Shown here: positions 5,095-64,000 of the stretch, one piece after another
How positions within the stretch are numbered: position 1 is the stretch's first letter
How the letters are laid out: every line of letters starts with the position of its first letter
Assembly (NCBI RefSeq): GCF_009914755.1
Contig: NC_060931.1
Origin: the human T2T-CHM13v2.0 reference genome, Homo sapiens
Length of the DNA: 64,000 bases
Direction: 5' to 3' (one strand)
Notes under the pieces: generated by a model
Database searches by the model: none
What the model saw: only the letters and a program-made list of their open reading frames with translations
What the model was told of the DNA's origin: nothing
Made by a program: the position numbers and the translations under genes

Positions 5095-5423
5095 TCTCTC
5101 TGGGCACCAGGACTGCTGCAGCTCCAGTGACCTTTTCGAGTGTGCCTCTCAGCCACTTCTCCCTGCCTGTGGTCACACCTGGGACCCTCCATCACCCAGA
5201 AAGGAGACTTCAGACAGTTCCCCACTGACCTCTCCTCTCTCGTTCCAGAACTCTCCATTTGGCCTCATCACCTCACTGTCACTCTCTATGTGTCCACTGC
5301 CTTCCTTAATCATCGTTCATAATTAAAATCAACTCCTGCAGGGCGAGGTGGTTCACGCCTGTAATCCCAGCACTTTGGGAGGCCGAAGTGGACGGATCAC
5401 TTGAGGTCAGGAGTTTGAGATCA

Positions 5424-5696
<273 letters not shown>

Positions 5697-38834: not shown

Positions 38835-42696
<3,862 letters not shown>

Positions 42697-42829
42697 TCGA
42701 ACTTGGTGCAGAAACTCACTCCAAATAAATTACCTTCGAAAATATTTACATAATGGTAGAAATATTCCAAAATTCCATATTTTGGGATTTATACACAAAA
42801 GATAAACAAATTAGAGGCCAAGAGGCTGC

Positions 42830-45915: not shown

Positions 45916-45963
45916 GTAGCGACTCGCGCCTCTGGGCAGGGTGCCAGAGGCATGAGTTGGGCA

Positions 45964-47217
45964 TCAACAGGCCACCGTGAGGGAGGAAGTGGCCCGCACG
46001 CGGGCTGCCGGGAGGCAGGCAGGGATTTGGCCCCAGGAGGCCGCCGTGGGGGTGAGAGATGGGCCTGGAGAGGCCCCTGGGAGGCAAGAGCGGGTCCTGC
46101 AGAGGCTGTTCTACAGCCAGAGCTGGGCCTGTACAGGCCACCGAGAGGCAGTAGGTGGGCCCGAAGAGCTTGGCTTGAGAAAGTTCGGGGCCTACAAAGG
46201 CGGCTGGGAGCTGGGCAGGAGTTGAGCCAAAAGAGCTTGCTTACTTGCTGGGAGGCAGGGCCGGGAGACGCTGACTTCAGGACGACTTGGGCCTGCAGAG
46301 GTCGCCAGGAGGCCCAAGCTGGGCGTGGAGGAGCCCACCGACCAGAGACCATTTGGGGCCTGGAGACGCCATCGGAGGGCAGGAGCTGATCCTGGAGAGG
46401 CCACCGTGAGGCCTGACCTGGGCCTGGGGAGCTTGGCTTGAGGAAGCTGTGGGCGGACCAAGGCCGCCAGGAGATGGGCAGGCGCTGAGTCCAAAGAGGT
46501 TGTTGGGAGGCAGCAGTCGGGCCTGGAGACGCAGCCGGGAGGAAGAGCTGGGCCCGGCGAGGACACCGGGAGGCTGCAAGTGGTTCTGGAGAGGCCGACT
46601 TGAGGAGGCCCGGCCTCTGCCTCAAGCATGGCGGCCTCTGCAGGCCCAGCTGTTCCTCCTGCCTCCCAGCAAGCAAGCTCTTTTGGCTCAGCTCCCGCCG
46701 GCGTTTGTAGACCGCGAAGTTTCTGCAGCAAAGCTCTTCAGGCCCACATCCTGCCTCCCAGTGGCCTGCACCCAGAGTCCCAGCTCTGGCAGCAGAAGAG
46801 CGTCAGCAGGCCCCGCTGTTGCCTCCCAGGGGCGTCTCCAGGCCCAGCTCTCGCCCCACCACGGCCTCCCGCGGCCAAGTCCCTGCCTGCTCCCGGCAGC
46901 CTGCGTACGGCCCTGCTCCTCCCTCACGGTGGCCTGTTGAGGCAGGGGCTCACGCTGACCTCTCTCGGCGTGGGAGGGGCCGGTGTGAGGCAAGGGGCTC
47001 ACGCTGACCTCTCTCGGCGTGAGAGGGGCCGGTGTGAGGCAAGGGGCTCACGCTGACCTCTCTCTGCGTGGGAGGGGCCGGTGTGAGCCAAGGGGTCAGT
47101 GTGGGAGGGGCCGGTGTGAGGCAAGGGGCTCACGCCGACCTCTCTCAGCGTGGGAGGAGCCAGTGTGAGGCAGGGACTCACGCCTCTGCGCAGGGTGCCA
47201 GCGGCATGAGTTGGGCA
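45964..47217. repeat. Diverged edge copy of the 1,298-bp unit
   Basis: Same tcaacaggccaccgtgagggagga...tcctccctcacggtggcctgttga frame, but with indels, many substitutions and one fewer minisatellite unit. Confidence 0.9.
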
Positions 47218-50200
47218 TCAACAGGCCACCGTGAGGGAGGAACTGGGCCGCACGCGGGCTGCCGGGAGGCCGCCGTGGGGGCGAGAGCTGGGCCTGGAGA
47301 GGCCCCTGGGAGGCAAGAGCGGGACCTGCAGAGGCTGTTCTACCGCCAGAGCTGGGCCTGTACAGGCCACCGAGAGGCAGTAGGCGGGCGCGAAGAGCTT
47401 GGCTCGAGAAAGTTCGGGGCCTACAAAGGCGGTTTTGAGCTGGGCAGGAGTTGAGCCCAAAGAGCTTGCTTACTTGCTGGGAGGCAGGGCCGGGAGACGC
47501 TGACTTCAGGACGACTTGGGCCTGCAGAGGTCGCCAGGAGGCCCAAGCTGGGCGCGGAGGAGCCCACCGACCGGAGACCGTTTGGGGCCTGGAGACGCCA
47601 TCGGAGGGCAGGAGCTGATCCTGGAGAGGCCACCGTGAGGCCTGACCTGGGCCTGGGGAGCTTGGCTTGAGGAAGCTGTGGGCCGACCAAGGCCGCCAGG
47701 AGATGGGCAGGCGCTGAGTCCAAAGAGGTTGTTGGGAGGCAGCAGTCGGGCCTGGAGACGCAGCCGGGAGGAAGAGCTGGGCCCGGAGAGGACGCCGGGA
47801 GGCCGCATGTGGGTCTGGAGAGGCCGACTTGAGGAGGCCCGGCCTCTGCCTCCCTCAGGGCGGCCTCTGCAGGCCCAGCTGTTCCTCCTGGCTGCATCTC
47901 TCGGCCCAGCTCCTGCCTCCCAGCAGGCAAGCTCTTTTGGCTCAGCTCCCTCCAGCGTTTGTAGACCCCGAAGTTTCTGCAGCCAAGCTCTTCAGGCCCA
48001 CATCCTGCCTCCCGGTGGCCTGTACAGTCCCAGCTCTGGCAGCAGAAGAGCGTCAGCAGGCCCCGCTGTTGCCTCCCAGGGGCGTCTCCAGGCCCAGCTC
48101 TCGCCCCACCACGGCCTCCCGCGGCCAAGTCCCTGCCTGCTCCCGGCAGCCTGCGTACGGCCCTGCTCCTCCCTCACGGTGGCCTGTTGAGGCAGGGGCT
48201 CACGCTGACCTCTCTCGGCGTGGGAGGGGCCGGTGTGAGGCAAGGGCTCACGCTGACCTCTCTCGGCGTGGGAGGGGCCGGTGTGAGGCAAGGGGCTCAC
48301 GCCGACCTCTCTCGGCGTGAGAGGGGCCGGTGTGAGGCAAGGGGCTCACGCTGACCTCTCTCTGCGTGGGAGGGGCCGGTGTGAGCCAAGGGGTCAGTGT
48401 GGGAGGGGCCGGTGTGAGGCAAGGGGCTCACGCCGACCTCTCTCAGCGTGGGAGGAGCCAGTGTGAGGCAGGGACTCACGCCTCTGCGCAGGGTGCCAGC
48501 GGCATGAGTTGGGCATCAACAGGCCACCGTGAGGGAGGAACTGGGCCGCACGCGGGCTGCCGGGAGGCCGCCGTGGGGGCGAGAGCTGGGCCTGGAGAGG
48601 CCCCTGGGAGGCAAGAGCGGGACCTGCAGAGGCTGTTCTACCGCCAGAGCTGGGCCTGTACAGGCCACCGAGAGGCAGTAGGCGGGCGCGAAGAGCTTGG
48701 CTCGAGAAAGTTCGGGGCCTACAAAGGCGGTTTTGAGCTGGGCAGGAGTTGAGCCCAAAGAGCTTGCTTACTTGCTGGGAGGCAGGGCCGGGAGACGCTG
48801 ACTTCAGGACGACTTGGGCCTGCAGAGGTCGCCAGGAGGCCCAAGCTGGGCGCGGAGGAGCCCACCGACCGGAGACCGTTTGGGGCCTGGAGACGCCATC
48901 GGAGGGCAGGAGCTGATCCTGGAGAGGCCACCGTGAGGCCTGACCTGGGCCTGGGGAGCTTGGCTTGAGGAAGCTGTGGGCCGACCAAGGCCGCCAGGAG
49001 ATGGGCAGGCGCTGAGTCCAAAGAGGTTGTTGGGAGGCAGCAGTCGGGCCTGGAGACGCAGCCGGGAGGAAGAGCTGGGCCCGGAGAGGACGCCGGGAGG
49101 CCGCATGTGGGTCTGGAGAGGCCGACTTGAGGAGGCCCGGCCTCTGCCTCCCTCAGGGCGGCCTCTGCAGGCCCAGCTGTTCCTCCTGGCTGCATCTCTC
49201 GGCCCAGCTCCTGCCTCCCAGCAGGCAAGCTCTTTTGGCTCAGCTCCCTCCAGCGTTTGTAGACCCCGAAGTTTCTGCAGCCAAGCTCTTCAGGCCCACA
49301 TCCTGCCTCCCGGTGGCCTGTACAGTCCCAGCTCTGGCAGCAGAAGAGCGTCAGCAGGCCCCGCTGTTGCCTCCCAGGGGCGTCTCCAGGCCCAGCTCTC
49401 GCCCCACCACGGCCTCCCGCGGCCAAGTCCCTGCCTGCTCCCGGCAGCCTGCGTACGGCCCTGCTCCTCCCTCACGGTGGCCTGTTGAGGCAGGGGCTCA
49501 CGCTGACCTCTCTCGGCGTGGGAGGGGCCGGTGTGAGGCAAGGGCTCACGCTGACCTCTCTCGGCGTGGGAGGGGCCGGTGTGAGGCAAGGGGCTCACGC
49601 CGACCTCTCTCGGCGTGAGAGGGGCCGGTGTGAGGCAAGGGGCTCACGCTGACCTCTCTCTGCGTGGGAGGGGCCGGTGTGAGCCAAGGGGTCAGTGTGG
49701 GAGGGGCCGGTGTGAGGCAAGGGGCTCACGCCGACCTCTCTCAGCGTGGGAGGAGCCAGTGTGAGGCAGGGACTCACGCCTCTGCGCAGGGTGCCAGCGG
49801 CATGAGTTGGGCATCAACAGGCCACCGTGAGGGAGGAACTGGGCCGCACGCGGGCTGCCGGGAGGCCGCCGTGGGGGCGAGAGCTGGGCCTGGAGAGGCC
49901 CCTGGGAGGCAAGAGCGGGACCTGCAGAGGCTGTTCTACCGCCAGAGCTGGGCCTGTACAGGCCACCGAGAGGCAGTAGGCGGGCGCGAAGAGCTTGGCT
50001 CGAGAAAGTTCGGGGCCTACAAAGGCGGTTTTGAGCTGGGCAGGAGTTGAGCCCAAAGAGCTTGCTTACTTGCTGGGAGGCAGGGCCGGGAGACGCTGAC
50101 TTCAGGACGACTTGGGCCTGCAGAGGTCGCCAGGAGGCCCAAGCTGGGCGCGGAGGAGCCCACCGACCGGAGACCGTTTGGGGCCTGGAGACGCCATCGG

Positions 50201-53200
50201 AGGGCAGGAGCTGATCCTGGAGAGGCCACCGTGAGGCCTGACCTGGGCCTGGGGAGCTTGGCTTGAGGAAGCTGTGGGCCGACCAAGGCCGCCAGGAGAT
50301 GGGCAGGCGCTGAGTCCAAAGAGGTTGTTGGGAGGCAGCAGTCGGGCCTGGAGACGCAGCCGGGAGGAAGAGCTGGGCCCGGAGAGGACGCCGGGAGGCC
50401 GCATGTGGGTCTGGAGAGGCCGACTTGAGGAGGCCCGGCCTCTGCCTCCCTCAGGGCGGCCTCTGCAGGCCCAGCTGTTCCTCCTGGCTGCATCTCTCGG
50501 CCCAGCTCCTGCCTCCCAGCAGGCAAGCTCTTTTGGCTCAGCTCCCTCCAGCGTTTGTAGACCCCGAAGTTTCTGCAGCCAAGCTCTTCAGGCCCACATC
50601 CTGCCTCCCGGTGGCCTGTACAGTCCCAGCTCTGGCAGCAGAAGAGCGTCAGCAGGCCCCGCTGTTGCCTCCCAGGGGCGTCTCCAGGCCCAGCTCTCGC
50701 CCCACCACGGCCTCCCGCGGCCAAGTCCCTGCCTGCTCCCGGCAGCCTGCGTACGGCCCTGCTCCTCCCTCACGGTGGCCTGTTGAGGCAGGGGCTCACG
50801 CTGACCTCTCTCGGCGTGGGAGGGGCCGGTGTGAGGCAAGGGCTCACGCTGACCTCTCTCGGCGTGGGAGGGGCCGGTGTGAGGCAAGGGGCTCACGCCG
50901 ACCTCTCTCGGCGTGAGAGGGGCCGGTGTGAGGCAAGGGGCTCACGCTGACCTCTCTCTGCGTGGGAGGGGCCGGTGTGAGCCAAGGGGTCAGTGTGGGA
51001 GGGGCCGGTGTGAGGCAAGGGGCTCACGCCGACCTCTCTCAGCGTGGGAGGAGCCAGTGTGAGGCAGGGACTCACGCCTCTGCGCAGGGTGCCAGCGGCA
51101 TGAGTTGGGCATCAACAGGCCACCGTGAGGGAGGAACTGGGCCGCACGCGGGCTGCCGGGAGGCCGCCGTGGGGGCGAGAGCTGGGCCTGGAGAGGCCCC
51201 TGGGAGGCAAGAGCGGGACCTGCAGAGGCTGTTCTACCGCCAGAGCTGGGCCTGTACAGGCCACCGAGAGGCAGTAGGCGGGCGCGAAGAGCTTGGCTCG
51301 AGAAAGTTCGGGGCCTACAAAGGCGGTTTTGAGCTGGGCAGGAGTTGAGCCCAAAGAGCTTGCTTACTTGCTGGGAGGCAGGGCCGGGAGACGCTGACTT
51401 CAGGACGACTTGGGCCTGCAGAGGTCGCCAGGAGGCCCAAGCTGGGCGCGGAGGAGCCCACCGACCGGAGACCGTTTGGGGCCTGGAGACGCCATCGGAG
51501 GGCAGGAGCTGATCCTGGAGAGGCCACCGTGAGGCCTGACCTGGGCCTGGGGAGCTTGGCTTGAGGAAGCTGTGGGCCGACCAAGGCCGCCAGGAGATGG
51601 GCAGGCGCTGAGTCCAAAGAGGTTGTTGGGAGGCAGCAGTCGGGCCTGGAGACGCAGCCGGGAGGAAGAGCTGGGCCCGGAGAGGACGCCGGGAGGCCGC
51701 ATGTGGGTCTGGAGAGGCCGACTTGAGGAGGCCCGGCCTCTGCCTCCCTCAGGGCGGCCTCTGCAGGCCCAGCTGTTCCTCCTGGCTGCATCTCTCGGCC
51801 CAGCTCCTGCCTCCCAGCAGGCAAGCTCTTTTGGCTCAGCTCCCTCCAGCGTTTGTAGACCCCGAAGTTTCTGCAGCCAAGCTCTTCAGGCCCACATCCT
51901 GCCTCCCGGTGGCCTGTACAGTCCCAGCTCTGGCAGCAGAAGAGCGTCAGCAGGCCCCGCTGTTGCCTCCCAGGGGCGTCTCCAGGCCCAGCTCTCGCCC
52001 CACCACGGCCTCCCGCGGCCAAGTCCCTGCCTGCTCCCGGCAGCCTGCGTACGGCCCTGCTCCTCCCTCACGGTGGCCTGTTGAGGCAGGGGCTCACGCT
52101 GACCTCTCTCGGCGTGGGAGGGGCCGGTGTGAGGCAAGGGCTCACGCTGACCTCTCTCGGCGTGGGAGGGGCCGGTGTGAGGCAAGGGGGCTCACGCTGA
52201 CCTCTCTCGGCGTGAGAGGGGCCGGTGTGAGGCAAGGGGCTCACGCTGACCTCTCTCTGCGTGGGAGGGGCCGGTGTGAGCCAAGGGGTCAGTGTGGGAG
52301 GGGCCGGTGTGAGGCAAGGGGCTCACGCCGACCTCTCTCAGCGTGGGAGGAGCCAGTGTGAGGCAGGGACTCACGCCTCTGCGCAGGGTGCCAGCGGCAT
52401 GAGTTGGGCATCAACAGGCCACCGTGAGGGAGGAACTGGGCCGCACGCGGGCTGCCGGGAGGCCGCCGTGGGGGCGAGAGCTGGGCCTGGAGAGGCCCCT
52501 GGGAGGCAAGAGCGGGACCTGCAGAGGCTGTTCTACCGCCAGAGCTGGGCCTGTACAGGCCACCGAGAGGCAGTAGGCGGGCGCGAAGAGCTTGGCTCGA
52601 GAAAGTTCGGGGCCTACAAAGGCGGTTTTGAGCTGGGCAGGAGTTGAGCCCAAAGAGCTTGCTTACTTGCTGGGAGGCAGGGCCGGGAGACGCTGACTTC
52701 AGGACGACTTGGGCCTGCAGAGGTCGCCAGGAGGCCCAAGCTGGGCGCGGAGGAGCCCACCGACCGGAGACCGTTTGGGGCCTGGAGACGCCATCGGAGG
52801 GCAGGAGCTGATCCTGGAGAGGCCACCGTGAGGCCTGACCTGGGCCTGGGGAGCTTGGCTTGAGGAAGCTGTGGGCCGACCAAGGCCGCCAGGAGATGGG
52901 CAGGCGCTGAGTCCAAAGAGGTTGTTGGGAGGCAGCAGTCGGGCCTGGAGACGCAGCCGGGAGGAAGAGCTGGGCCCGGAGAGGACGCCGGGAGGCCGCA
53001 TGTGGGTCTGGAGAGGCCGACTTGAGGAGGCCCGGCCTCTGCCTCCCTCAGGGCGGCCTCTGCAGGCCCAGCTGTTCCTCCTGGCTGCATCTCTCGGCCC
53101 AGCTCCTGCCTCCCAGCAGGCAAGCTCTTTTGGCTCAGCTCCCTCCAGCGTTTGTAGACCCCGAAGTTTCTGCAGCCAAGCTCTTCAGGCCCACATCCTG

Positions 53201-56200
53201 CCTCCCGGTGGCCTGTACAGTCCCAGCTCTGGCAGCAGAAGAGCGTCAGCAGGCCCCGCTGTTGCCTCCCAGGGGCGTCTCCAGGCCCAGCTCTCGCCCC
53301 ACCACGGCCTCCCGCGGCCAAGTCCCTGCCTGCTCCCGGCAGCCTGCGTACGGCCCTGCTCCTCCCTCACGGTGGCCTGTTGAGGCAGGGGCTCACGCTG
53401 ACCTCTCTCGGCGTGGGAGGGGCCGGTGTGAGGCAAGGGCTCACGCTGACCTCTCTCGGCGTGGGAGGGGCCGGTGTGAGGCAAGGGGGCTCACGCCGAC
53501 CTCTCTCGGCGTGAGAGGGGCCGGTGTGAGGCAAGGGGCTCACGCTGACCTCTCTCTGCGTGGGAGGGGCCGGTGTGAGCCAAGGGGTCAGTGTGGGAGG
53601 GGCCGGTGTGAGGCAAGGGGCTCACGCCGACCTCTCTCAGCGTGGGAGGAGCCAGTGTGAGGCAGGGACTCACGCCTCTGCGCAGGGTGCCAGCGGCATG
53701 AGTTGGGCATCAACAGGCCACCGTGAGGGAGGAACTGGGCCGCACGCGGGCTGCCGGGAGGCCGCCGTGGGGGCGAGAGCTGGGCCTGGAGAGGCCCCTG
53801 GGAGGCAAGAGCGGGACCTGCAGAGGCTGTTCTACCGCCAGAGCTGGGCCTGTACAGGCCACCGAGAGGCAGTAGGCGGGCGCGAAGAGCTTGGCTCGAG
53901 AAAGTTCGGGGCCTACAAAGGCGGTTTTGAGCTGGGCAGGAGTTGAGCCCAAAGAGCTTGCTTACTTGCTGGGAGGCAGGGCCGGGAGACGCTGACTTCA
54001 GGACGACTTGGGCCTGCAGAGGTCGCCAGGAGGCCCAAGCTGGGCGCGGAGGAGCCCACCGACCGGAGACCGTTTGGGGCCTGGAGACGCCATCGGAGGG
54101 CAGGAGCTGATCCTGGAGAGGCCACCGTGAGGCCTGACCTGGGCCTGGGGAGCTTGGCTTGAGGAAGCTGTGGGCCGACCAAGGCCGCCAGGAGATGGGC
54201 AGGCGCTGAGTCCAAAGAGGTTGTTGGGAGGCAGCAGTCGGGCCTGGAGACGCAGCCGGGAGGAAGAGCTGGGCCCGGAGAGGACGCCGGGAGGCCGCAT
54301 GTGGGTCTGGAGAGGCCGACTTGAGGAGGCCCGGCCTCTGCCTCCCTCAGGGCGGCCTCTGCAGGCCCAGCTGTTCCTCCTGGCTGCATCTCTCGGCCCA
54401 GCTCCTGCCTCCCAGCAGGCAAGCTCTTTTGGCTCAGCTCCCTCCAGCGTTTGTAGACCCCGAAGTTTCTGCAGCCAAGCTCTTCAGGCCCACATCCTGC
54501 CTCCCGGTGGCCTGTACAGTCCCAGCTCTGGCAGCAGAAGAGCGTCAGCAGGCCCCGCTGTTGCCTCCCAGGGGCGTCTCCAGGCCCAGCTCTCGCCCCA
54601 CCACGGCCTCCCGCGGCCAAGTCCCTGCCTGCTCCCGGCAGCCTGCGTACGGCCCTGCTCCTCCCTCACGGTGGCCTGTTGAGGCAGGGGCTCACGCTGA
54701 CCTCTCTCGGCGTGGGAGGGGCCGGTGTGAGGCAAGGGCTCACGCTGACCTCTCTCGGCGTGGGAGGGGCCGGTGTGAGGCAAGGGGCTCACGCCGACCT
54801 CTCTCGGCGTGAGAGGGGCCGGTGTGAGGCAAGGGGCTCACGCTGACCTCTCTCTGCGTGGGAGGGGCCGGTGTGAGCCAAGGGGTCAGTGTGGGAGGGG
54901 CCGGTGTGAGGCAAGGGGCTCACGCCGACCTCTCTCAGCGTGGGAGGAGCCAGTGTGAGGCAGGGACTCACGCCTCTGCGCAGGGTGCCAGCGGCATGAG
55001 TTGGGCATCAACAGGCCACCGTGAGGGAGGAACTGGGCCGCACGCGGGCTGCCGGGAGGCCGCCGTGGGGGCGAGAGCTGGGCCTGGAGAGGCCCCTGGG
55101 AGGCAAGAGCGGGACCTGCAGAGGCTGTTCTACCGCCAGAGCTGGGCCTGTACAGGCCACCGAGAGGCAGTAGGCGGGCGCGAAGAGCTTGGCTCGAGAA
55201 AGTTCGGGGCCTACAAAGGCGGTTTTGAGCTGGGCAGGAGTTGAGCCCAAAGAGCTTGCTTACTTGCTGGGAGGCAGGGCCGGGAGACGCTGACTTCAGG
55301 ACGACTTGGGCCTGCAGAGGTCGCCAGGAGGCCCAAGCTGGGCGCGGAGGAGCCCACTGACCGGAGACCGTTTGGGGCCTGGAGACGCCATCGGAGGGCA
55401 GGAGCTGATCCTGGAGAGGCCACCGTGAGGCCTGACCTGGGCCTGGGGAGCTTGGCTTGAGGAAGCTGTGGGCCGACCAAGGCCGCCAGGAGATGGGCAG
55501 GCGCTGAGTCCAAAGAGGTTGTTGGGAGGCAGCAGTCGGGCCTGGAGACGCAGCCGGGAGGAAGAGCTGGGCCCGGAGAGGACGCCGGGAGGCCGCATGT
55601 GGGTCTGGAGAGGCCGACTTGAGGAGGCCCGGCCTCTGCCTCCCTCAGGGCGGCCTCTGCAGGCCCAGCTGTTCCTCCTGGCTGCATCTCTCGGCCCAGC
55701 TCCTGCCTCCCAGCAGGCAAGCTCTTTTGGCTCAGCTCCCTCCAGCGTTTGTAGACCCCGAAGTTTCTGCAGCCAAGCTCTTCAGGCCCACATCCTGCCT
55801 CCCGGTGGCCTGTACAGTCCCAGCTCTGGCAGCAGAAGAGCGTCAGCAGGCCCCGCTGTTGCCTCCCAGGGGCGTCTCCAGGCCCAGCTCTCGCCCCACC
55901 ACGGCCTCCCGCGGCCAAGTCCCTGCCTGCTCCCGGCAGCCTGCGTACGGCCCTGCTCCTCCCTCACGGTGGCCTGTTGAGGCAGGGGCTCACGCTGACC
56001 TCTCTCGGCGTGGGAGGGGCCGGTGTGAGGCAAGGGCTCACGCTGACCTCTCTCGGCGTGGGAGGGGCCGGTGTGAGGCAAGGGGCTCACGCCGACCTCT
56101 CTCGGCGTGAGAGGGGCCGGTGTGAGGCAAGGGGCTCACGCTGACCTCTCTCTGCGTGGGAGGGGCCGGTGTGAGCCAAGGGGTCAGTGTGGGAGGGGCC

Positions 56201-59200
56201 GGTGTGAGGCAAGGGGCTCACGCCGACCTCTCTCAGCGTGGGAGGAGCCAGTGTGAGGCAGGGACTCACGCCTCTGCGCAGGGTGCCAGCGGCATGAGTT
56301 GGGCATCAACAGGCCACCGTGAGGGAGGAACTGGGCCGCACGCGGGCTGCCGGGAGGCCGCCGTGGGGGCGAGAGCTGGGCCTGGAGAGGCCCCTGGGAG
56401 GCAAGAGCGGGACCTGCAGAGGCTGTTCTACCGCCAGAGCTGGGCCTGTACAGGCCACCGAGAGGCAGTAGGCGGGCGCGAAGAGCTTGGCTCGAGAAAG
56501 TTCGGGGCCTACAAAGGCGGTTTTGAGCTGGGCAGGAGTTGAGCCCAAAGAGCTTGCTTACTTGCTGGGAGGCAGGGCCGGGAGACGCTGACTTCAGGAC
56601 GACTTGGGCCTGCAGAGGTCGCCAGGAGGCCCAAGCTGGGCGCGGAGGAGCCCACCGACCGGAGACCGTTTGGGGCCTGGAGACGCCATCGGAGGGCAGG
56701 AGCTGATCCTGGAGAGGCCACCGTGAGGCCTGACCTGGGCCTGGGGAGCTTGGCTTGAGGAAGCTGTGGGCCGACCAAGGCCGCCAGGAGATGGGCAGGC
56801 GCTGAGTCCAAAGAGGTTGTTGGGAGGCAGCAGTCGGGCCTGGAGACGCAGCCGGGAGGAAGAGCTGGGCCCGGAGAGGACGCCGGGAGGCCGCATGTGG
56901 GTCTGGAGAGGCCGACTTGAGGAGGCCCGGCCTCTGCCTCCCTCAGGGCGGCCTCTGCAGGCCCAGCTGTTCCTCCTGGCTGCATCTCTCGGCCCAGCTC
57001 CTGCCTCCCAGCAGGCAAGCTCTTTTGGCTCAGCTCCCTCCAGCGTTTGTAGACTCCGAAGTTTCTGCAGCCAAGCTCTTCAGGCCCACATCCTGCCTCC
57101 CGGTGGCCTGTACAGTCCCAGCTCTGGCAGCAGAAGAGCGTCAGCAGGCCCCGCTGTTGCCTCCCAGGGGCGTCTCCAGGCCCAGCTCTCGCCCCACCAC
57201 GGCCTCCCGCGGCCAAGTCCCTGCCTGCTCCCGGCAGCCTGCGTACGGCCCTGCTCCTCCCTCACGGTGGCCTGTTGAGGCAGGGGCTCACGCTGACCTC
57301 TCTCGGCGTGGGAGGGGCCGGTGTGAGGCAAGGGCTCACGCTGACCTCTCTCGGCGTGGGAGGGGCCGGTGTGAGGCAAGGGGCTCACGCCGACCTCTCT
57401 CGGCGTGAGAGGGGCCGGTGTGAGGCAAGGGGCTCACGCTGACCTCTCTCTGCGTGGGAGGGGCCGGTGTGAGCCAAGGGGTCAGTGTGGGAGGGGCCGG
57501 TGTGAGGCAAGGGGCTCACGCCGACCTCTCTCAGCGTGGGAGGAGCCAGTGTGAGGCAGGGACTCACGCCTCTGCGCAGGGTGCCAGCGGCATGAGTTGG
57601 GCATCAACAGGCCACCGTGAGGGAGGAACTGGGCCGCACGCGGGCTGCCGGGAGGCCGCCGTGGGGGCGAGAGCTGGGCCTGGAGAGGCCCCTGGGAGGC
57701 AAGAGCGGGACCTGCAGAGGCTGTTCTACCGCCAGAGCTGGGCCTGTACAGGCCACCGAGAGGCAGTAGGCGGGCGCGAAGAGCTTGGCTCGAGAAAGTT
57801 CGGGGCCTACAAAGGCGGTTTTGAGCTGGGCAGGAGTTGAGCCCAAAGAGCTTGCTTACTTGCTGGGAGGCAGGGCCGGGAGACGCTGACTTCAGGACGA
57901 CTTGGGCCTGCAGAGGTCGCCAGGAGGCCCAAGCTGGGCGCGGAGGAGCCCACCGACCGGAGACCGTTTGGGGCCTGGAGACGCCATCGGAGGGCAGGAG
58001 CTGATCCTGGAGAGGCCACCGTGAGGCCTGACCTGGGCCTGGGGAGCTTGGCTTGAGGAAGCTGTGGGCCGACCAAGGCCGCCAGGAGATGGGCAGGCGC
58101 TGAGTCCAAAGAGGTTGTTGGGAGGCAGCAGTCGGGCCTGGAGACGCAGCCGGGAGGAAGAGCTGGGCCCGGAGAGGACGCCGGGAGGCCGCATGTGGGT
58201 CTGGAGAGGCCGACTTGAGGAGGCCCGGCCTCTGCCTCCCTCAGGGCGGCCTCTGCAGGCCCAGCTGTTCCTCCTGGCTGCATCTCTCGGCCCAGCTCCT
58301 GCCTCCCAGCAGGCAAGCTCTTTTGGCTCAGCTCCCTCCAGCGTTTGTAGACCCCGAAGTTTCTGCAGCCAAGCTCTTCAGGCCCACATCCTGCCTCCCG
58401 GTGGCCTGTACAGTCCCAGCTCTGGCAGCAGAAGAGCGTCAGCAGGCCCCGCTGTTGCCTCCCAGGGGCGTCTCCAGGCCCAGCTCTCGCCCCACCACGG
58501 CCTCCCGCGGCCAAGTCCCTGCCTGCTCCCGGCAGCCTGCGTACGGCCCTGCTCCTCCCTCACGGTGGCCTGTTGAGGCAGGGGCTCACGCTGACCTCTC
58601 TCGGCGTGGGAGGGGCCGGTGTGAGGCAAGGGCTCACGCTGACCTCTCTCGGCGTGGGAGGGGCCGGTGTGAGGCAAGGGGCTCACGCCGACCTCTCTCG
58701 GCGTGAGAGGGGCCGGTGTGAGGCAAGGGGCTCACGCTGACCTCTCTCTGCGTGGGAGGGGCCGGTGTGAGCCAAGGGGTCAGTGTGGGAGGGGCCGGTG
58801 TGAGGCAAGGGGCTCACGCCGACCTCTCTCAGCGTGGGAGGAGCCAGTGTGAGGCAGGGACTCACGCCTCTGCGCAGGGTGCCAGCGGCATGAGTTGGGC
58901 ATCAACAGGCCACCGTGAGGGAGGAACTGGGCCGCACGCGGGCTGCCGGGAGGCCGCCGTGGGGGCGAGAGCTGGGCCTGGAGAGGCCCCTGGGAGGCAA
59001 GAGCGGGACCTGCAGAGGCTGTTCTACCGCCAGAGCTGGGCCTGTACAGGCCACCGAGAGGCAGTAGGCGGGCGCGAAGAGCTTGGCTCGAGAAAGTTCG
59101 GGGCCTACAAAGGCGGTTTTGAGCTGGGCAGGAGTTGAGCCCAAAGAGCTTGCTTACTTGCTGGGAGGCAGGGCCGGGAGACGCTGACTTCAGGACGACT

Positions 59201-62200
59201 TGGGCCTGCAGAGGTCGCCAGGAGGCCCAAGCTGGGCGCGGAGGAGCCCACCGACCGGAGACCGTTTGGGGCCTGGAGACGCCATCGGAGGGCAGGAGCT
59301 GATCCTGGAGAGGCCACCGTGAGGCCTGACCTGGGCCTGGGGAGCTTGGCTTGAGGAAGCTGTGGGCCGACCAAGGCCGCCAGGAGATGGGCAGGCGCTG
59401 AGTCCAAAGAGGTTGTTGGGAGGCAGCAGTCGGGCCTGGAGACGCAGCCGGGAGGAAGAGCTGGGCCCGGAGAGGACGCCGGGAGGCCGCATGTGGGTCT
59501 GGAGAGGCCGACTTGAGGAGGCCCGGCCTCTGCCTCCCTCAGGGCGGCCTCTGCAGGCCCAGCTGTTCCTCCTGGCTGCATCTCTCGGCCCAGCTCCTGC
59601 CTCCCAGCAGGCAAGCTCTTTTGGCTCAGCTCCCTCCAGCGTTTGTAGACCCCGAAGTTTCTGCAGCCAAGCTCTTCAGGCCCACATCCTGCCTCCCGGT
59701 GGCCTGTACAGTCCCAGCTCTGGCAGCAGAAGAGCGTCAGCAGGCCCCGCTGTTGCCTCCCAGGGGCGTCTCCAGGCCCAGCTCTCGCCCCACCACGGCC
59801 TCCCGCGGCCAAGTCCCTGCCTGCTCCCGGCAGCCTGCGTACGGCCCTGCTCCTCCCTCACGGTGGCCTGTTGAGGCAGGGGCTCACGCTGACCTCTCTC
59901 GGCGTGGGAGGGGCCGGTGTGAGGCAAGGGCTCACGCTGACCTCTCTCGGCGTGGGAGGGGCCGGTGTGAGGCAAGGGGCTCACGCCGACCTCTCTCGGC
60001 GTGAGAGGGGCCGGTGTGAGGCAAGGGGCTCACGCTGACCTCTCTCTGCGTGGGAGGGGCCGGTGTGAGCCAAGGGGTCAGTGTGGGAGGGGCCGGTGTG
60101 AGGCAAGGGGCTCACGCCGACCTCTCTCAGCGTGGGAGGAGCCAGTGTGAGGCAGGGACTCACGCCTCTGCGCAGGGTGCCAGCGGCATGAGTTGGGCAT
60201 CAACAGGCCACCGTGAGGGAGGAACTGGGCCGCACGCGGGCTGCCGGGAGGCCGCCGTGGGGGCGAGAGCTGGGCCTGGAGAGGCCCCTGGGAGGCAAGA
60301 GCGGGACCTGCAGAGGCTGTTCTACCGCCAGAGCTGGGCCTGTACAGGCCACCGAGAGGCAGTAGGCGGGCGCGAAGAGCTTGGCTCGAGAAAGTTCGGG
60401 GCCTACAAAGGCGGTTTTGAGCTGGGCAGGAGTTGAGCCCAAAGAGCTTGCTTACTTGCTGGGAGGCAGGGCCGGGAGACGCTGACTTCAGGACGACTTG
60501 GGCCTGCAGAGGTCGCCAGGAGGCCCAAGCTGGGCGCGGAGGAGCCCACCGACCGGAGACCGTTTGGGGCCTGGAGACGCCATCGGAGGGCAGGAGCTGA
60601 TCCTGGAGAGGCCACCGTGAGGCCTGACCTGGGCCTGGGGAGCTTGGCTTGAGGAAGCTGTGGGCCGACCAAGGCCGCCAGGAGATGGGCAGGCGCTGAG
60701 TCCAAAGAGGTTGTTGGGAGGCAGCAGTCGGGCCTGGAGACGCAGCCGGGAGGAAGAGCTGGGCCCGGAGAGGACGCCGGGAGGCCGCATGTGGGTCTGG
60801 AGAGGCCGACTTGAGGAGGCCCGGCCTCTGCCTCCCTCAGGGCGGCCTCTGCAGGCCCAGCTGTTCCTCCTGGCTGCATCTCTCGGCCCAGCTCCTGCCT
60901 CCCAGCAGGCAAGCTCTTTTGGCTCAGCTCCCTCCAGCGTTTGTAGACCCCAAAGTTTCTGCAGCCAAGCTCTTCAGGCCCACATCCTGCCTCCCGGTGG
61001 CCTGTACAGTCCCAGCTCTGGCAGCAGAAGAGCGTCAGCAGGCCCCGCTGTTGCCTCCCAGGGGCGTCTCCAGGCCCAGCTCTCGCCCCACCACGGCCTC
61101 CCGCGGCCAAGTCCCTGCCTGCTCCCGGCAGCCTGCGTACGGCCCTGCTCCTCCCTCACGGTGGCCTGTTGAGGCAGGGGCTCACGCTGACCTCTCTCGG
61201 CGTGGGAGGGGCCGGTGTGAGGCAAGGGCTCACGCTGACCTCTCTCGGCGTGGGAGGGGCCGGTGTGAGGCAAGGGGCTCACGCCGACCTCTCTCGGCGT
61301 GAGAGGGGCCGGTGTGAGGCAAGGGTCTCACGCTGACCTCTCTCTGCGTGGGAGGGGCCGGTGTGAGCCAAGGGGTCAGTGTGGGAGGGGCCGGTGTGAG
61401 GCAAGGGGCTCACGCCGACCTCTCTCAGCGTGGGAGGAGCCAGTGTGAGGCAGGGACTCACGCCTCTGCGCAGGGTGCCAGCGGCATGAGTTGGGCATCA
61501 ACAGGCCACCGTGAGGGAGGAACTGGGCCGCACGCGGGCTGCCGGGAGGCCGCCGTGGGGGCGAGAGCTGGGCCTGGAGAGGCCCCTGGGAGGCAAGAGC
61601 GGGACCTGCAGAGGCTGTTCTACCGCCAGAGCTGGGCCTGTACAGGCCACCGAGAGGCAGTAGGCGGGCGCGAAGAGCTTGGCTCGAGAAAGTTCGGGGC
61701 CTACAAAGGCGGTTTTGAGCTGGGCAGGAGTTGAGCCCAAAGAGCTTGCTTACTTGCTGGGAGGCAGGGCCGGGAGACGCTGACTTCAGGACGACTTGGG
61801 CCTGCAGAGGTCGCCAGGAGGCCCAAGCTGGGCGCGGAGGAGCCCACCGACCGGAGACCGTTTGGGGCCTGGAGACGCCATCGGAGGGCAGGAGCTGATC
61901 CTGGAGAGGCCACCGTGAGGCCTGACCTGGGCCTGGGGAGCTTGGCTTGAGGAAGCTGTGGGCCGACCAAGGCCGCCAGGAGATGGGCAGGCGCTGAGTC
62001 CAAAGAGGTTGTTGGGAGGCAGCAGTCGGGCCTGGAGACGCAGCCGGGAGGAAGAGCTGGGCCCGGAGAGGACGCCGGGAGGCCGCATGTGGGTCTGGAG
62101 AGGCCGACTTGAGGAGGCCCGGCCTCTGCCTCCCTCAGGGCGGCCTCTGCAGGCCCAGCTGTTCCTCCTGGCTGCATCTCTCGGCCCAGCTCCTGCCTCC

Positions 62201-64000
62201 CAGCAGGCAAGCTCTTTTGGCTCAGCTCCCTCCAGCGTTTGTAGACCCCGAAGTTTCTGCAGCCAAGCTCTTCAGGCCCACATCCTGCCTCCCGGTGGCC
62301 TGTACAGTCCCAGCTCTGGCAGCAGAAGAGCGTCAGCAGGCCCCGCTGTTGCCTCCCAGGGGCGTCTCCAGGCCCAGCTCTCGCCCCACCACGGCCTCCC
62401 GCGGCCAAGTCCCTGCCTGCTCCCGGCAGCCTGCGTACGGCCCTGCTCCTCCCTCACGGTGGCCTGTTGAGGCAGGGGCTCACGCTGACCTCTCTCGGCG
62501 TGGGAGGGGCCGGTGTGAGGCAAGGGCTCACGCTGACCTCTCTCGGCGTGGGAGGGGCCGGTGTGAGGCAAGGGGCTCACGCCGACCTCTCTCGGCGTGA
62601 GAGGGGCCGGTGTGAGGCAAGGGGCTCACGCTGACCTCTCTCTGCGTGGGAGGGGCCGGTGTGAGCCAAGGGGTCAGTGTGGGAGGGGCCGGTGTGAGGC
62701 AAGGGGCTCACGCCGACCTCTCTCAGCGTGGGAGGAGCCGGTGTGAGGCAGGGACTCACGCCTCTGCGCAGGGTGCCAGCGGCATGAGTTGGGCATCAAC
62801 AGGCCACCGTGAGGGAGGAACTGGGCCGCACGCGGGCTGCCGGGAGGCCGCCGTGGGGGCGAGAGCTGGGCCTGGAGAGGCCCCTGGGAGGCAAGAGCGG
62901 GACCTGCAGAGGCTGTTCTACCGCCAGAGCTGGGCCTGTACAGGCCACCGAGAGGCAGTAGGCGGGCGCGAAGAGCTTGGCTCGAGAAAGTTCGGGGCCT
63001 ACAAAGGCGGTTTTGAGCTGGGCAGGAGTTGAGCCCAAAGAGCTTGCTTACTTGCTGGGAGGCAGGGCCGGGAGACGCTGACTTCAGGACGACTTGGGCC
63101 TGCAGAGGTCGCCAGGAGGCCCAAGCTGGGCGCGGAGGAGCCCACCGACCGGAGACCGTTTGGGGCCTGGAGACGCCATCGGAGGGCAGGAGCTGATCCT
63201 GGAGAGGCCACCGTGAGGCCTGACCTGGGCCTGGGGAGCTTGGCTTGAGGAAGCTGTGGGCCGACCAAGGCCGCCAGGAGATGGGCAGGCGCTGAGTCCA
63301 AAGAGGTTGTTGGGAGGCAGCAGTCGGGCCTGGAGACGCAGCCGGGAGGAAGAGCTGGGCCCGGAGAGGACGCCGGGAGGCCGCATGTGGGTCTGGAGAG
63401 GCCGACTTGAGGAGGCCCGGCCTCTGCCTCCCTCAGGGCGGCCTCTGCAGGCCCAGCTGTTCCTCCTGGCTGCATCTCTCGGCCCAGCTCCTGCCTCCCA
63501 GCAGGCAAGCTCTTTTGGCTCAGCTCCCTCCAGCGTTTGTAGACCCCGAAGTTTCTGCAGCCAAGCTCTTCAGGCCCACATCCTGCCTCCCGGTGGCCTG
63601 TACAGTCCCAGCTCTGGCAGCAGAAGAGCGTCAGCAGGCCCCGCTGTTGCCTCCCAGGGGCGTCTCCAGGCCCAGCTCTCGCCCCACCACGGCCTCCCGC
63701 GGCCAAGTCCCTGCCTGCTCCCGGCAGCCTGCGTACGGCCCTGCTCCTCCCTCACGGTGGCCTGTTGAGGCAGGGGCTCACGCTGACCTCTCTCGGCGTG
63801 GGAGGGGCCGGTGTGAGGCAAGGGCTCACGCTGACCTCTCTCGGCGTGGGAGGGGCCGGTGTGAGGCAAGGGGCTCACGCCGACCTCTCTCGGCGTGAGA
63901 GGGGCCGGTGTGAGGCAAGGGTCTCACGCTGACCTCTCTCTGCGTGGGAGGGGCCGGTGTGAGCCAAGGGGTCAGTGTGGGAGGGGCCGGTGTGAGGCAA
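47068..64000. repeat. Highly homogeneous 1,298-bp tandem array (macrosatellite), 13 full periods, continuing past the window end
   Basis: Near-identical ORFs recur at 47068, 48366, 49664, 50962, 52261, 53560, 54858, 56156, 57454, 58752, 60050, 61348 and 62646 (spacing 1298, twice 1299). Confidence 0.99.

What the first reader, a model, noticed from the sequence alone, without database searches (positions are those of the whole stretch)
47218..64000. Tandem array of ~1-kb imperfect hairpins: every 1,298-bp unit is a long inverted repeat (candidate dsRNA/hairpin-RNA or cruciform locus)
Seen: each unit contains a 973-bp segment (e.g. 47218-48190) whose ends are a perfect 24-bp inverted repeat (tcaacaggccaccgtgagggagga, 47218-47241; tcctccctcacggtggcctgttga, 48167-48190). 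Complementarity continues inward for ~270 bp, including ggggcgagagctgggcctggaga vs tctccaggcccagctctcgcccc and a 27/28 match gccagagctgggcctgtacaggccaccg vs cggtggcctgtacagtcccagctctggc. After a ~260-nt one-sided bulge (~47490-47750), pairing resumes up to an apex at gaggcc-c-ggcctc (~47840). Arms alternate in polarity, so the right arm of unit n can also pair with the left arm of unit n+1 across the 325-bp spacer. From memory, this GC-rich block next to CICP/SEPT14P is covered by lncRNA annotations at paralogous human loci (LOC729737/LINC01000-type), and I recall it there without this large homogeneous amplification. Inference: a transcript from either strand would give serial long GC-rich stems, possible substrates for Dicer/Drosha, ADAR or PKR/MDA5. 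Small RNAs from it could act in trans on dispersed paralogues of the duplicon.
Basis: partly seen in the sequence, partly recalled or inferred. Interest (0 to 1): 0.85.

Follow-up and report, generated by a model that had tools for sequence, protein, structure and literature searches.

The report
Known chr7 repeat array of hairpins
This is a real run of about 61 near-identical 1.3-kb repeats, roughly 80 kb long, on human chromosome 7; each repeat can fold into a long imperfect hairpin, but the array is already catalogued and the hairpin shape looks like an inherited by-product, not a selected RNA-making device.

Summary
The 24-bp terminal inverted repeat recurs every 1,298 bp. Units are 99.8-100% identical. 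The array runs 61.5 kb past the window: 61 units plus a partial one, chr7:56,527,964-56,607,510. Each 973-nt core folds into a long imperfect hairpin on either strand (-721 and -713 kcal/mol, z about -25.7).

The array is already in print. It is the teucer-ajax "super-repeat" of the TELO_Comp composite at chr7:56525533 (Hoyt et al. preprint) and cenSat censat_7_2 "NovelTandem" (Lee 2026). None of the three main texts I read mentions the inverted arms.

The arms are old. All 14 paralogous loci that carry both arms have them flanking the 49-bp ajax minisatellite. Arm identity is 79-85%. It is no higher within a locus than between loci, and one-sided changes far outnumber double changes (113 versus 4 columns). 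The amplified unit carries a derived 25-bp deletion in one arm and is not the most stable hairpin.

The best reading is a macrosatellite made by unequal crossing-over between direct teucer segments, with passive hairpin geometry. dsRNA output remains untested.

The parts
43336..43689 (+). L1: the upstream direct-repeat segment of teucer (older copy, 90% identical to the array's L)
   Evidence: carries the L1 state at 16 of 16 diagnostic columns
43694..44042 (+). Older copy of the right arm (R), abutting the long ajax array
   Evidence: 94.8% identical to the array's R over unit 625-973
44031..45916 (+). Long ajax minisatellite (49-bp unit, about 38 copies)
   Evidence: TRF rows with period 49 (and 82, 130, 372) across 44031-45916
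45964..47217 (+). Unit 0: a diverged first unit (A-L-R-ajax-J) that lacks the array-specific 25-bp deletion
   Evidence: 1191 matches, 34 mismatches, 102 gap columns against unit 1
47218..64000 (+). Units 1-13 of the homogeneous 1,298-bp array (unit 13 is cut by the window end). The array continues to chr7:56,607,510, which is 125,510 in extended window coordinates.
47218..47557 (+). Left arm A of unit 1 (unit 1-340); G-rich (GC skew +0.23); begins with the 24-mer
47484..47837 (+). L segment of unit 1 (unit 267-620). It is the direct repeat shared by both teucer copies. Its unit 341-624 portion is the unmatched middle, or loop, of the hairpin.
47842..48190 (+). Right arm R of unit 1 (unit 625-973); C-rich (GC skew -0.25); ends with the reverse complement of the 24-mer
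48181..48480 (+). Short ajax block of unit 1 (about 6 copies of the 49-bp unit, each a small quasi-palindrome)
   Evidence: 48181-48393 period 49; 48317-48467 period 82
48481..48515 (+). J: a 35-bp unique junction between ajax and the next left arm. BLAST at E<=1e-10 detected it at 13 of the 16 paralogous loci (94% identity); it was not detected at chr9q-tel, chr7:45.97M or chr7:129.96M, and neither chrY locus has it.
47421..47897 (-). The only ATG-initiated ORF of 150 aa or more per unit (158 aa, low complexity); it matches Pfam DUF4705

Best explanation
The feature is the teucer-ajax super-repeat of the TELO_Comp composite, also annotated as cenSat censat_7_2. It is a macrosatellite of about 80 kb in the pericentromeric part of chr7p.

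**Ancestral layout (shown).** The ancestral duplicon has the order L - R - ajax - J - A - L. L is a direct repeat of about 354 bp. R and A are old inverted copies of one segment of about 340 bp. The arms therefore originally flanked the 49-bp ajax minisatellite.

**Origin of the array (inferred, with support).** Unequal crossing-over between the two direct L segments duplicates the block R-ajax-J-A-L. Repeated unequal exchange then expanded one variant, marked by a 25-bp deletion in A, to about 60 copies. Concerted evolution keeps those copies nearly identical.

**Why every unit is a hairpin (shown).** Head-to-tail repetition of a block that holds both arms makes every unit (A-L-R) and every junction (R-ajax-A) an imperfect hairpin of about 1 kb. 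The geometry is a passive consequence of this history.

**What a transcript would do (inferred).** The arms show no sign of selection for pairing. A transcript of either strand would form a very stable but much interrupted GC-rich duplex of about 230-285 bp, with perfect runs of at most 26 bp. That resembles an inverted Alu pair more than a Dicer-optimised hairpin RNA. Whether such transcripts exist is not shown.
For: **Identity with the published element.**
- The Hoyt et al. preprint (section 6 read) describes ajax (49 bp) bounded by duplicated teucer. It reports tandem teucer-ajax arrays at three chr7 loci. It calls the arrangement at 'Chromosome 7:56525533' a 'super-repeat' under concerted evolution. 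That position is window 43,533, inside L1.
- Lee 2026 (section 8 read) gives censat_7_2 NovelTandem as chr7:56524206-56610877.

**Architecture.** BLAST maps of 16 paralogous loci show L-R-ajax-J-A-L at 11 single-unit loci. Three loci have two units (chr7:45.97M, chr7:55.90M, chr1:227.16M). Only this locus has about 61.

**Unequal crossing-over.**
- The middle L at chr1:227.16M is a clean chimera. The first 7 of 16 diagnostic columns carry the L2 state (one of them is ambiguous) and the last 9 carry the L1 state.
- The chr7 copies are L2-type through the last diagnostic column (268 of 367). Their exchange point would therefore lie 3' of that column, so the duplication arose at least twice.
- The array ends with a partial A-L, as this model predicts.

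**Concerted evolution.** Twenty-six of 61 units are identical. Units 1-60 differ from unit 1 by 0-6 mismatches. Unit 0 is clearly diverged, and the final partial unit is 96.9% identical.

**The arms are old and unconstrained.**
- Arm-to-arm identity is 0.79-0.85, against 0.885-0.97 for A-to-A or R-to-R between loci. The inversion therefore predates the dispersal of all sampled loci.
- Partner arms are no more complementary than non-partner arms of the same clade: 0.8254 (n=12) against 0.8269 (n=56); 0.7979 (n=8) against 0.7979 (n=56); 0.7963 (n=4) against 0.7975 (n=4).
- Of 292 ancestrally paired columns, 113 show one-sided pair-breaking changes and 4 show double changes.
- The array's A lacks 25 columns that are present in all 18 other A copies. 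Its hairpin (-721 kcal/mol) is weaker than those at chr7:55.90M (-800.6) and chr7:45.97M (-750.7).

**Consistent with germline silencing.** CpG observed/expected is 0.53 at 68.6% GC. Ajax arrays are reported as hypermethylated.
Against: - The RefSeq table supplied with the finding lists predicted lncRNA models on both strands inside the array. The model in the window has canonical GT...AG boundaries at unit 797 -> 167. Some transcription is therefore plausible, and the spliced model would keep parts of both arms.
- The fold is extraordinarily stable on both strands (z about -25.7).
- In the crude all-loci comparison, partner arms show somewhat more double changes than random non-partners (14 cells against 7.0 +/- 2.7). 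They also show fewer one-sided breaks (423 against 466 +/- 16). I attribute this to clade structure, because it vanishes within clades. That control rests on identity only, not on double-change counts.
- Consensus arm identity falls from 95% in the 80 columns next to ajax to 65-73% distally. This could reflect past gene conversion or constraint near ajax, not purely neutral decay.
- The chr7 crossover point is inferred, not seen. No diagnostic column lies in the last 99 alignment columns of L.
- Pericentromeric TELO_Comp units are reported to have lower overall methylation than the others.
Confidence: 0.8

Rival explanations
1. It is a functional hairpin-RNA or dsRNA locus. The array is transcribed, each unit folds, and the stems are processed into small RNAs, or are sensed or edited by ADAR, PKR or MDA5. 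The products could act in trans on the roughly two dozen dispersed paralogues.
For: - Very stable folds on both strands.
- Sixty-one tandem copies.
- Predicted lncRNA models on both strands in the supplied RefSeq table, with canonical splice sites for the one in the window.
- Paralogues 84-97% identical could serve as targets.
Against: - There is no co-evolution of partner arms within clades. One-sided breaks outnumber double changes, 113 to 4 columns.
- The amplified variant has a 25-bp deletion that lowers pairing, and it is weaker than two of its four single-copy counterparts.
- No uninterrupted helix reaches 30 bp.
- No Rfam family reaches its gathering score in 42000-50500.
- Ajax is reported hypermethylated, and CpG observed/expected is 0.53.
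- The only 2 relevant papers found with the word 'teucer' have 0 hits for hairpin or palindrom in their main text.
Confidence: 0.08
2. It is a chromatin-architectural macrosatellite. The teucer units provide a dense array of CTCF sites that alternate in orientation because of the inverted arms. The array would act as a boundary or looping element near the centromere, in the manner of DXZ4 or D4Z4.
For: A 2026 preprint (passages read) reports 5,023 predicted CTCF sites per Mb in teucer flanks and 0 in ajax. It finds most ajax arrays on chr7 (n=99) and a 'modest' DiMeLo-seq CTCF signal. The unit is GC-rich and kb-scale, like known CTCF-binding macrosatellites.
Against: - My scan with the core consensus CCASYAGRKGGCRS (recalled motif) finds 0 sites in the array at 1 mismatch or fewer. 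The whole window has 4, all elsewhere, against 2.8 expected.
- Only 4 sites per unit appear at 2 mismatches.
- CpG methylation would oppose binding.
- The reported binding signal is modest.
Confidence: 0.1
3. It is a tandem array of protein-coding or pseudogene units of the FLJ44672/DUF4705 type, amplified as a gene family.
For: - The 158-aa ORF on the - strand matches Pfam DUF4705 at E 4.3e-13 (50.3 bits, cut-off 27).
- A + strand frame in the right arm matches equally well.
- RefSeq lists pseudogene models, and one protein-coding model just past the window (supplied table).
Against: - The longest ATG ORF is 158 aa and of low complexity.
- The 1,298-bp period is not a multiple of 3.
- The same 'domain' is read from opposite strands of the two arms. 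That is what translating an inverted GC-rich repeat gives.
- No paper holds the term DUF4705 or any of the five LOC names I searched.
Confidence: 0.03
4. It is an assembly artefact. The copy number or the homogeneity was inflated by the assembler.
For: Units are 99.5-100% identical over 78 kb, a hard case for assembly.
Against: - Twenty-six distinct unit sequences and six length variants (1152, 1249, 1265 twice, 1299, 1348) are scattered along the array as anchors.
- Two independent annotations treat the array as real.
- The flanks grade into diverged units, as natural arrays do.
Confidence: 0.02

Closest known systems
TELO_Comp teucer-ajax super-repeat (Hoyt et al. preprint 10.1101/2021.07.12.451456); cenSat censat_7_2 'NovelTandem' (cited in Lee 2026, PMC13015009)
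   Same: It is the same locus and the same unit content. The 49-bp ajax is bounded by duplicated teucer. The array is tandem at chr7:56.525 Mb and evolves in concert.
   Different: The main texts describe teucer as a 'duplication' only. They do not say that the two copies share one direct segment (L) and one inverted segment (R against A), so that each array unit is a hairpin. The Hoyt preprint has 0 hits for 'hairpin', 'inverted repeat' and 'palindrom'. Lee 2026 has 0 hits for 'inverted' and for 'hairpin', 'palindrom' and 'dsRNA'. The CTCF preprint has 0 hits for 'hairpin' and 'palindrom', and its one 'inverted' concerns another locus. I could not see the supplements.
Human macrosatellites such as D4Z4 and DXZ4 (recalled knowledge)
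   Same: GC-rich units of kb scale in long head-to-tail arrays. High identity between units. CpG methylation. Predicted CTCF motifs. Origin by unequal crossing-over.
   Different: The unit is smaller (1.3 kb). It has no credible gene such as DUX4. It carries a large internal inverted repeat. Copy-number polymorphism was not tested here.
Inverted Alu pairs as endogenous dsRNA (ADAR1 substrates and MDA5 ligands; recalled knowledge)
   Same: An imperfect intramolecular duplex of about 300 bp with arm identity in the 80s of percent, broken by mismatches and bulges.
   Different: It is not a SINE. GC is 68.6%, so the stems are far more stable. It is present 61 times in tandem. No transcript, editing or sensing has been shown.
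Drosophila hpRNA loci and mouse oocyte hairpin endo-siRNA loci (recalled knowledge)
   Same: Long inverted repeats, sometimes tandemly repeated, that could fold within one transcript.
   Different: Those loci have near-perfect stems, abundant 21-22-nt products and arms that stay complementary. Here the arms are about 81% identical and show no co-evolution. No small-RNA data are available.

Membership tests
TELO_Comp teucer-ajax super-repeat / censat_7_2 | An array of the 49-bp ajax satellite | tested here: met
   TRF finds period 49 in every unit and in the long block 44031-45916.
TELO_Comp teucer-ajax super-repeat / censat_7_2 | Ajax bounded on both sides by a duplicated flanking sequence (teucer) | tested here: met
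   L-R upstream and A-L downstream of ajax at this locus and at 14 of 16 paralogous loci.
TELO_Comp teucer-ajax super-repeat / censat_7_2 | The published coordinates (chr7:56525533; chr7:56524206-56610877) | tested here: met
   The window is chr7:56482001-56546000. The array spans 56,527,964-56,607,510, inside the published interval.
TELO_Comp teucer-ajax super-repeat / censat_7_2 | Teucer and ajax evolve together as one unit (concerted evolution) | tested here: met
   Twenty-six of 61 whole units are identical, and units 1-60 show 0-6 mismatches.
TELO_Comp teucer-ajax super-repeat / censat_7_2 | A TELO-A subunit downstream of ajax | not tested
   I did not compare the sequence downstream of the array, beyond noting a diverged arm-like copy about 2.2 kb past the last L.
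Macrosatellite | A unit of about 1 kb or more in a long head-to-tail array with high identity | tested here: met
   A 1,298-bp unit, 61 copies, about 79.5 kb.
Macrosatellite | Copy number varies among people | not testable with these tools
   Only one human assembly is held.
Hairpin-RNA / endo-siRNA locus | A long inverted repeat able to fold within one strand | tested here: met
   z -25.7 and -25.6.
Hairpin-RNA / endo-siRNA locus | One transcript spans both arms | not testable with these tools
   The only evidence is a predicted RefSeq lncRNA model whose exons cover unit 167-797.
Hairpin-RNA / endo-siRNA locus | Small RNAs of 21-23 nt from both arms that depend on Dicer | not testable with these tools
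   No expression data are held.
Hairpin-RNA / endo-siRNA locus | Pairing kept by selection (compensatory change, partner arms co-evolve) | tested here: not met
   Partner and same-clade non-partner identities are equal. One-sided changes occupy 113 columns and double changes 4.
Cruciform-prone palindrome (PATRR-like) | Near-perfect arms | tested here: not met
   263 matches, 60 mismatches and 43 gap columns in the array unit.
Cruciform-prone palindrome (PATRR-like) | Little or no spacer between the arms | tested here: not met
   The spacer is 284 nt (L) or 325 nt (ajax plus J).
Known RNA family (Rfam 15, including miRNA precursors) | A score at or above the family's gathering threshold | tested here: not met
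   The best scores in the array are mir-1233 at 28.9 against 87 and FTX_5 at 31.8 against 45.
CTCF-site array | Matches to the CTCF core motif in each unit | tested here: inconclusive
   There are 0 sites at 1 mismatch or fewer and 4 per unit at 2 mismatches. A preprint using its own motif models reports strong enrichment.
DUF4705 (Pfam PF15788) protein | A Pfam match above the gathering score | tested here: met
   50.3 bits against a cut-off of 27. A frame on the opposite strand in the right arm matches too.
DUF4705 (Pfam PF15788) protein | A credible long open reading frame | tested here: not met
   The longest ATG ORF is 158 aa, and the period is not a multiple of 3.

The most novel reading that the evidence does not exclude
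The 61 tandem hairpins are a conditional source of endogenous dsRNA. When the array loses methylation (early embryo, germline, tumours or DNMT inhibition), read-through transcripts of either strand would fold into serial GC-rich stems of about 250 bp. These would be edited by ADAR1, would trigger MDA5 or PKR, or would be diced into small RNAs that match about two dozen TELO_Comp paralogues. Copy number at chr7p11 would then set the dose. That would make this a human counterpart of tandem hpRNA clusters.
Probability: 0.1. Interest if true: 0.7.

Novelty: already known. Interest (0 to 1): 0.3.

Why it matters
The array is catalogued, so the finding is not a discovery of a new element.

- **Internal anatomy of teucer.** Its two copies share a direct segment and an old inverted segment centred on ajax.
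- **Why every unit is a hairpin.** That anatomy explains the hairpin shape of each amplified unit and supports unequal crossing-over as the origin of the array.
- **A negative test for selection on pairing.**
- **An array-specific 40-mer.** It allows RNA, small-RNA, methylation or CTCF reads to be assigned unambiguously to this locus.

If the array proved to be a dsRNA source it would matter for innate immune sensing and for 'viral mimicry' therapy. As it stands it is a well-behaved macrosatellite with a striking but probably passive secondary-structure potential.

Tried and rejected
- **Literature on gene names.** LINC01000, LINC01001, LINC01002, LINC00999, LOC729737 and FLJ44672 with at least two terms gave 3 irrelevant papers. 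DUF4705 and five LOC names gave 0 papers. 'macrosatellite / T2T-CHM13 / 7p11.2' gave nothing on this locus among the 15 of 56 papers listed.
- **Published version of Hoyt et al.** It is not held under its DOI or under a PMC id I recalled. I used the preprint main text. bioRxiv supplements (Figs S12-S15, Tables S9-S12) are closed and may describe teucer's internal structure.
- **Rfam.** No family reaches threshold.
- **Motif scans of one unit** (motifs recalled from memory). No PRDM9 13-mer, no canonical G-quadruplex motif, and only weak CTCF-core matches.
- **Coding reading.** Rejected on ORF length, on the period and on the domain being read from opposite strands.
- **Cruciform reading.** Rejected on arm identity and spacer length.
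- **The apparent excess of double changes in partner arms**. I judged this a clade artefact after the within-clade control.

Full report
**1. The observation**

The 24-mer at 47218-47241 occurs 14 times on the + strand of the window. Its exact reverse complement also occurs 14 times. After a first step of 1254 (forward copies) or 1250 (reverse-complement copies), all steps are 1298 or 1299 bp.

Units 1-12 differ from unit 1 by 0-2 mismatches and 0-1 gap column. The unit at 45964 is clearly older, with 1191 matches, 34 mismatches and 102 gap columns.

The window is T2T-CHM13 chr7:56482001-56546000. I fetched the next 70 kb and joined it to the window. The 24-mer occurs 62 times. That makes 61 full units plus a terminal partial unit of 620 nt, spanning chr7:56,527,964-56,607,510, about 79.5 kb.
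- Twenty-six of the 61 units are identical, and there are 26 distinct unit sequences.
- Units 1-60 differ from unit 1 by 0-6 mismatches.
- Length variants are 1152, 1249, 1265 (twice), 1299 (six times) and 1348 bp. They differ by 33, 49, 50 or 146 bp, which points to changes in the ajax part.

**2. The inverted repeat**

A global alignment of the left part against the reverse complement of the right part gives 278 matches and 36 mismatches plus indels. It contains both quoted matches.

By homology the arms are unit 1-340 (A) and unit 625-973 (R). A 284-nt middle is unmatched.

Folding results:

| Molecule and stretch | MFE (kcal/mol) | Control |
|---|---|---|
| RNA, 973 nt, + strand | -721.0 | shuffles -504.5 +/- 8.4; z -25.7; 0 of 20 as good |
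| RNA, 973 nt, - strand | -712.6 | z -25.6 |
| ssDNA, 973 nt, + strand | -392.8 | z -24.3 |
| RNA, R-ajax-A, 1014 nt | -771.6 | none (over 1000 nt) |

The duplex is much interrupted. The longest perfect helix is 24 bp on the + strand and 26 bp on the - strand. Four and six helices respectively reach 15 bp. None reaches 30 bp.

The alternative register, the right arm of one unit with the left arm of the next across ajax, is equally stable per nucleotide.

**3. What it is**

A search of the whole genome with one unit found relatives at the following places (lower bounds):
- seven subtelomeres: 1p, 19p, 7p, 11p, 9q, 3q and 5q;
- chr7 at 39.95, 45.97, 51.55, 55.90 and 129.96 Mb;
- chr1 at 227.16 Mb, chr10 at 38.49 Mb and two places on chrY.

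I fetched 16 of these loci and mapped four sub-segments of the unit onto them.
- The common order is L - R - ajax - J - A - L. The arms R and A flank the 49-bp minisatellite, and two direct copies of a 354-bp segment L flank the whole.
- Eleven loci have this single arrangement.
- Three loci have two units and therefore one A-L-R hairpin (chr7:45.97M, chr7:55.90M, chr1:227.16M).
- The two chrY loci show only L-R in the 9 kb fetched.
- Only the window's locus has about 61 units.

**4. It is already in print**

[quoted passage not shown] It counts 24 loci on 10 chromosomes. Three chr7 loci have extra tandem teucer-ajax arrays. [quoted passage not shown] Pericentromeric arrays evolve in concert. 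Ajax is hypermethylated everywhere, and pericentromeric units have lower overall methylation.
- Lee 2026 (PMC13015009; section 8 and passages read) names the interval chr7:56524206-56610877 as cenSat censat_7_2, 'NovelTandem', 86,672 bp, next to SEPTIN14P24 and CICP8.
- A 2026 preprint on CTCF sites (10.64898/2026.07.18.739380; passages read) reports teucer flanks enriched in predicted CTCF sites.

A search for 'teucer', 'ajax', 'TELO_Comp' and 'TELO-composite' requiring at least two terms found three papers. Two are relevant, the Hoyt and CTCF preprints. The third is an unrelated note from 1907.

Word searches of the three main texts gave these results:
- Hoyt: 0 hits for 'hairpin', 'inverted repeat' and 'palindrom'.
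- Lee: 0 hits for 'inverted' and for 'hairpin', 'palindrom' and 'dsRNA'.
- CTCF preprint: 0 hits for 'hairpin' and 'palindrom', and one 'inverted' that concerns another locus.

So the inverted arms inside teucer are, as far as I could see, not described. I could not read the supplements.

**5. How the array arose**

L1 (upstream) and L2 (downstream) copies differ at 16 diagnostic columns.
- The middle L of the two-unit locus at chr1:227.16M is a chimera. Its 5' half is L2-type and its 3' half is L1-type, with the switch between columns 136 and 193. This is the product expected from unequal exchange between L2 and L1.
- The middle L copies of the chr7 loci and of the array are L2-type through the last diagnostic column (268 of 367). 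Their exchange would lie further 3'. That part is inferred.
- The duplication therefore happened at least twice.

The array ends in a partial A-L, and its edge units are the most diverged. Both features are typical of arrays homogenised by unequal exchange.

All array units, including the terminal partial one, share a 25-column deletion in A. It is absent from unit 0 and from all 18 other A copies. A 40-mer across this deletion occurs 60 times in the genome, all within the array. One variant was therefore amplified.

**6. Is the pairing selected?**

I aligned 19 A copies with the reverse complements of 22 R copies in 371 columns.
- Arm-to-arm identity is 0.79-0.85. For the array unit it is 263 matches, 60 mismatches and 43 gap columns.
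- The same arm compared between loci is 0.885-0.97 identical to the array's copy. The inversion is therefore older than the dispersal of all sampled loci.
- Partner arms are no more alike than arms from different loci of the same clade:

| Clade | Partners (n) | Same-clade non-partners (n) |
|---|---|---|
| 1 (chr7 pericentromeric group) | 0.8254 (12) | 0.8269 (56) |
| 2 (subtelomeres, chr7:129.96M) | 0.7979 (8) | 0.7979 (56) |
| 3 (chr1:227.16M, chr10:38.49M) | 0.7963 (4) | 0.7975 (4) |

- Of 292 ancestrally paired columns, 113 show one-sided changes (423 cells) and 4 show double changes (14 cells).
- Random non-partner sets give 7.0 +/- 2.7 double-change cells and 466 +/- 16 one-sided cells. 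The small partner excess disappears within clades.
- Of the five natural A-L-R hairpins, the array's (-721.0) is weaker than those at chr7:55.90M (-800.6) and chr7:45.97M (-750.7).
- One result does not fit simple neutral decay. Consensus arm identity falls from 95% in the 80 columns next to ajax to 65-73% distally. This suggests that the original palindrome was centred on ajax, and perhaps that old gene conversion acted near its centre.

**7. Other readings**

- **Rfam.** No family reaches threshold in 42000-50500.
- **Coding.** The only ATG ORF of 150 aa or more per unit is 158 aa. It matches Pfam DUF4705, but so does a frame on the opposite strand in the other arm. That is what translating an inverted repeat gives.
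- **CTCF.** The core motif has 0 matches in the array at 1 mismatch or fewer and 4 per unit at 2 mismatches.
- **Composition.** GC is 68.6% and CpG observed/expected is 0.53.
- **Transcription.** The predicted RefSeq lncRNA in the window has GT and AG boundaries at unit 797 and 167. Some transcription may therefore occur. I could not test it.

**8. Verdict**

- The array is already known.
- The hairpin geometry is a real and apparently undescribed detail. It is best explained as a passive inheritance from an old palindrome around ajax.
- The dsRNA or hairpin-RNA function is untested, and the only test available here went against selection for pairing.

Noticed in passing
window 48215-48312 (any ajax block): The 49-bp ajax unit is itself a quasi-palindrome. 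Two adjacent units each fold into a stem of about 16 bp (ssDNA -29.5 kcal/mol, z -4.8, 0 of 200 shuffles as good). The locus therefore has dyad symmetry at two scales.
   Followed up: partly
arms, unit 1-340 and 625-973 (e.g. window 47218-47557 and 47842-48190): Identity between the consensus arms falls with distance from ajax. It is 95% in the first 80 columns, 85-92% up to column 280, and 65-73% beyond. The 24-mer is intact in 16 of 19 A copies and 19 of 22 R copies.
   Followed up: partly
L028 (chr1:227.16M) 5335-5688: The middle L copy is a clean L2/L1 chimera, with the switch between diagnostic columns 136 and 193. This shows an independent unequal exchange at another locus.
   Followed up: yes
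window 47253-47292 and every later unit: A 25-bp deletion in the left arm marks the amplified variant. A 40-mer across it has 60 exact matches in the whole genome, all in this array, with 0 on the reverse strand and 0 elsewhere. It is usable as a read-assignment marker.
   Followed up: yes
window 47487-47624 (-) and 48030-48182 (+): Pfam DUF4705 is matched above its cut-off by frames on opposite strands of the unit. This suggests that the Pfam family is built on translations of this GC-rich repeat.
   Followed up: partly
window 62294/62295, 62961/62962, 63592/63593: The predicted lncRNA LOC124906679 uses the same donor (unit 797, GTGGCC) in successive units and an acceptor at unit 167. Its exons would keep parts of both arms.
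   Followed up: partly
window 42000-42073 (-): Sub-threshold Rfam hits to mir-1268 (41.6 against 87 bits) and Metazoa_SRP overlap here. This looks like an Alu-derived stretch just upstream of the teucer-like region.
   Followed up: no
L030, L031 (chrY 26.2 and 24.58 Mb): The two chrY copies show only L-R (87-89% identity), with no A arm or J within the 9 kb fetched.
   Followed up: no
extended coordinates 66690, 93803, 101558, 117101, 123545 (beyond the window): Unit length variants of 1152, 1265, 1265, 1249 and 1348 bp differ from 1298 by 146, 33, 33, 49 and 50 bp. This points to changes in the ajax part. The 1152-bp unit coincides with the RefSeq 'protein_coding' model LOC124906629 in the supplied table.
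   Followed up: no
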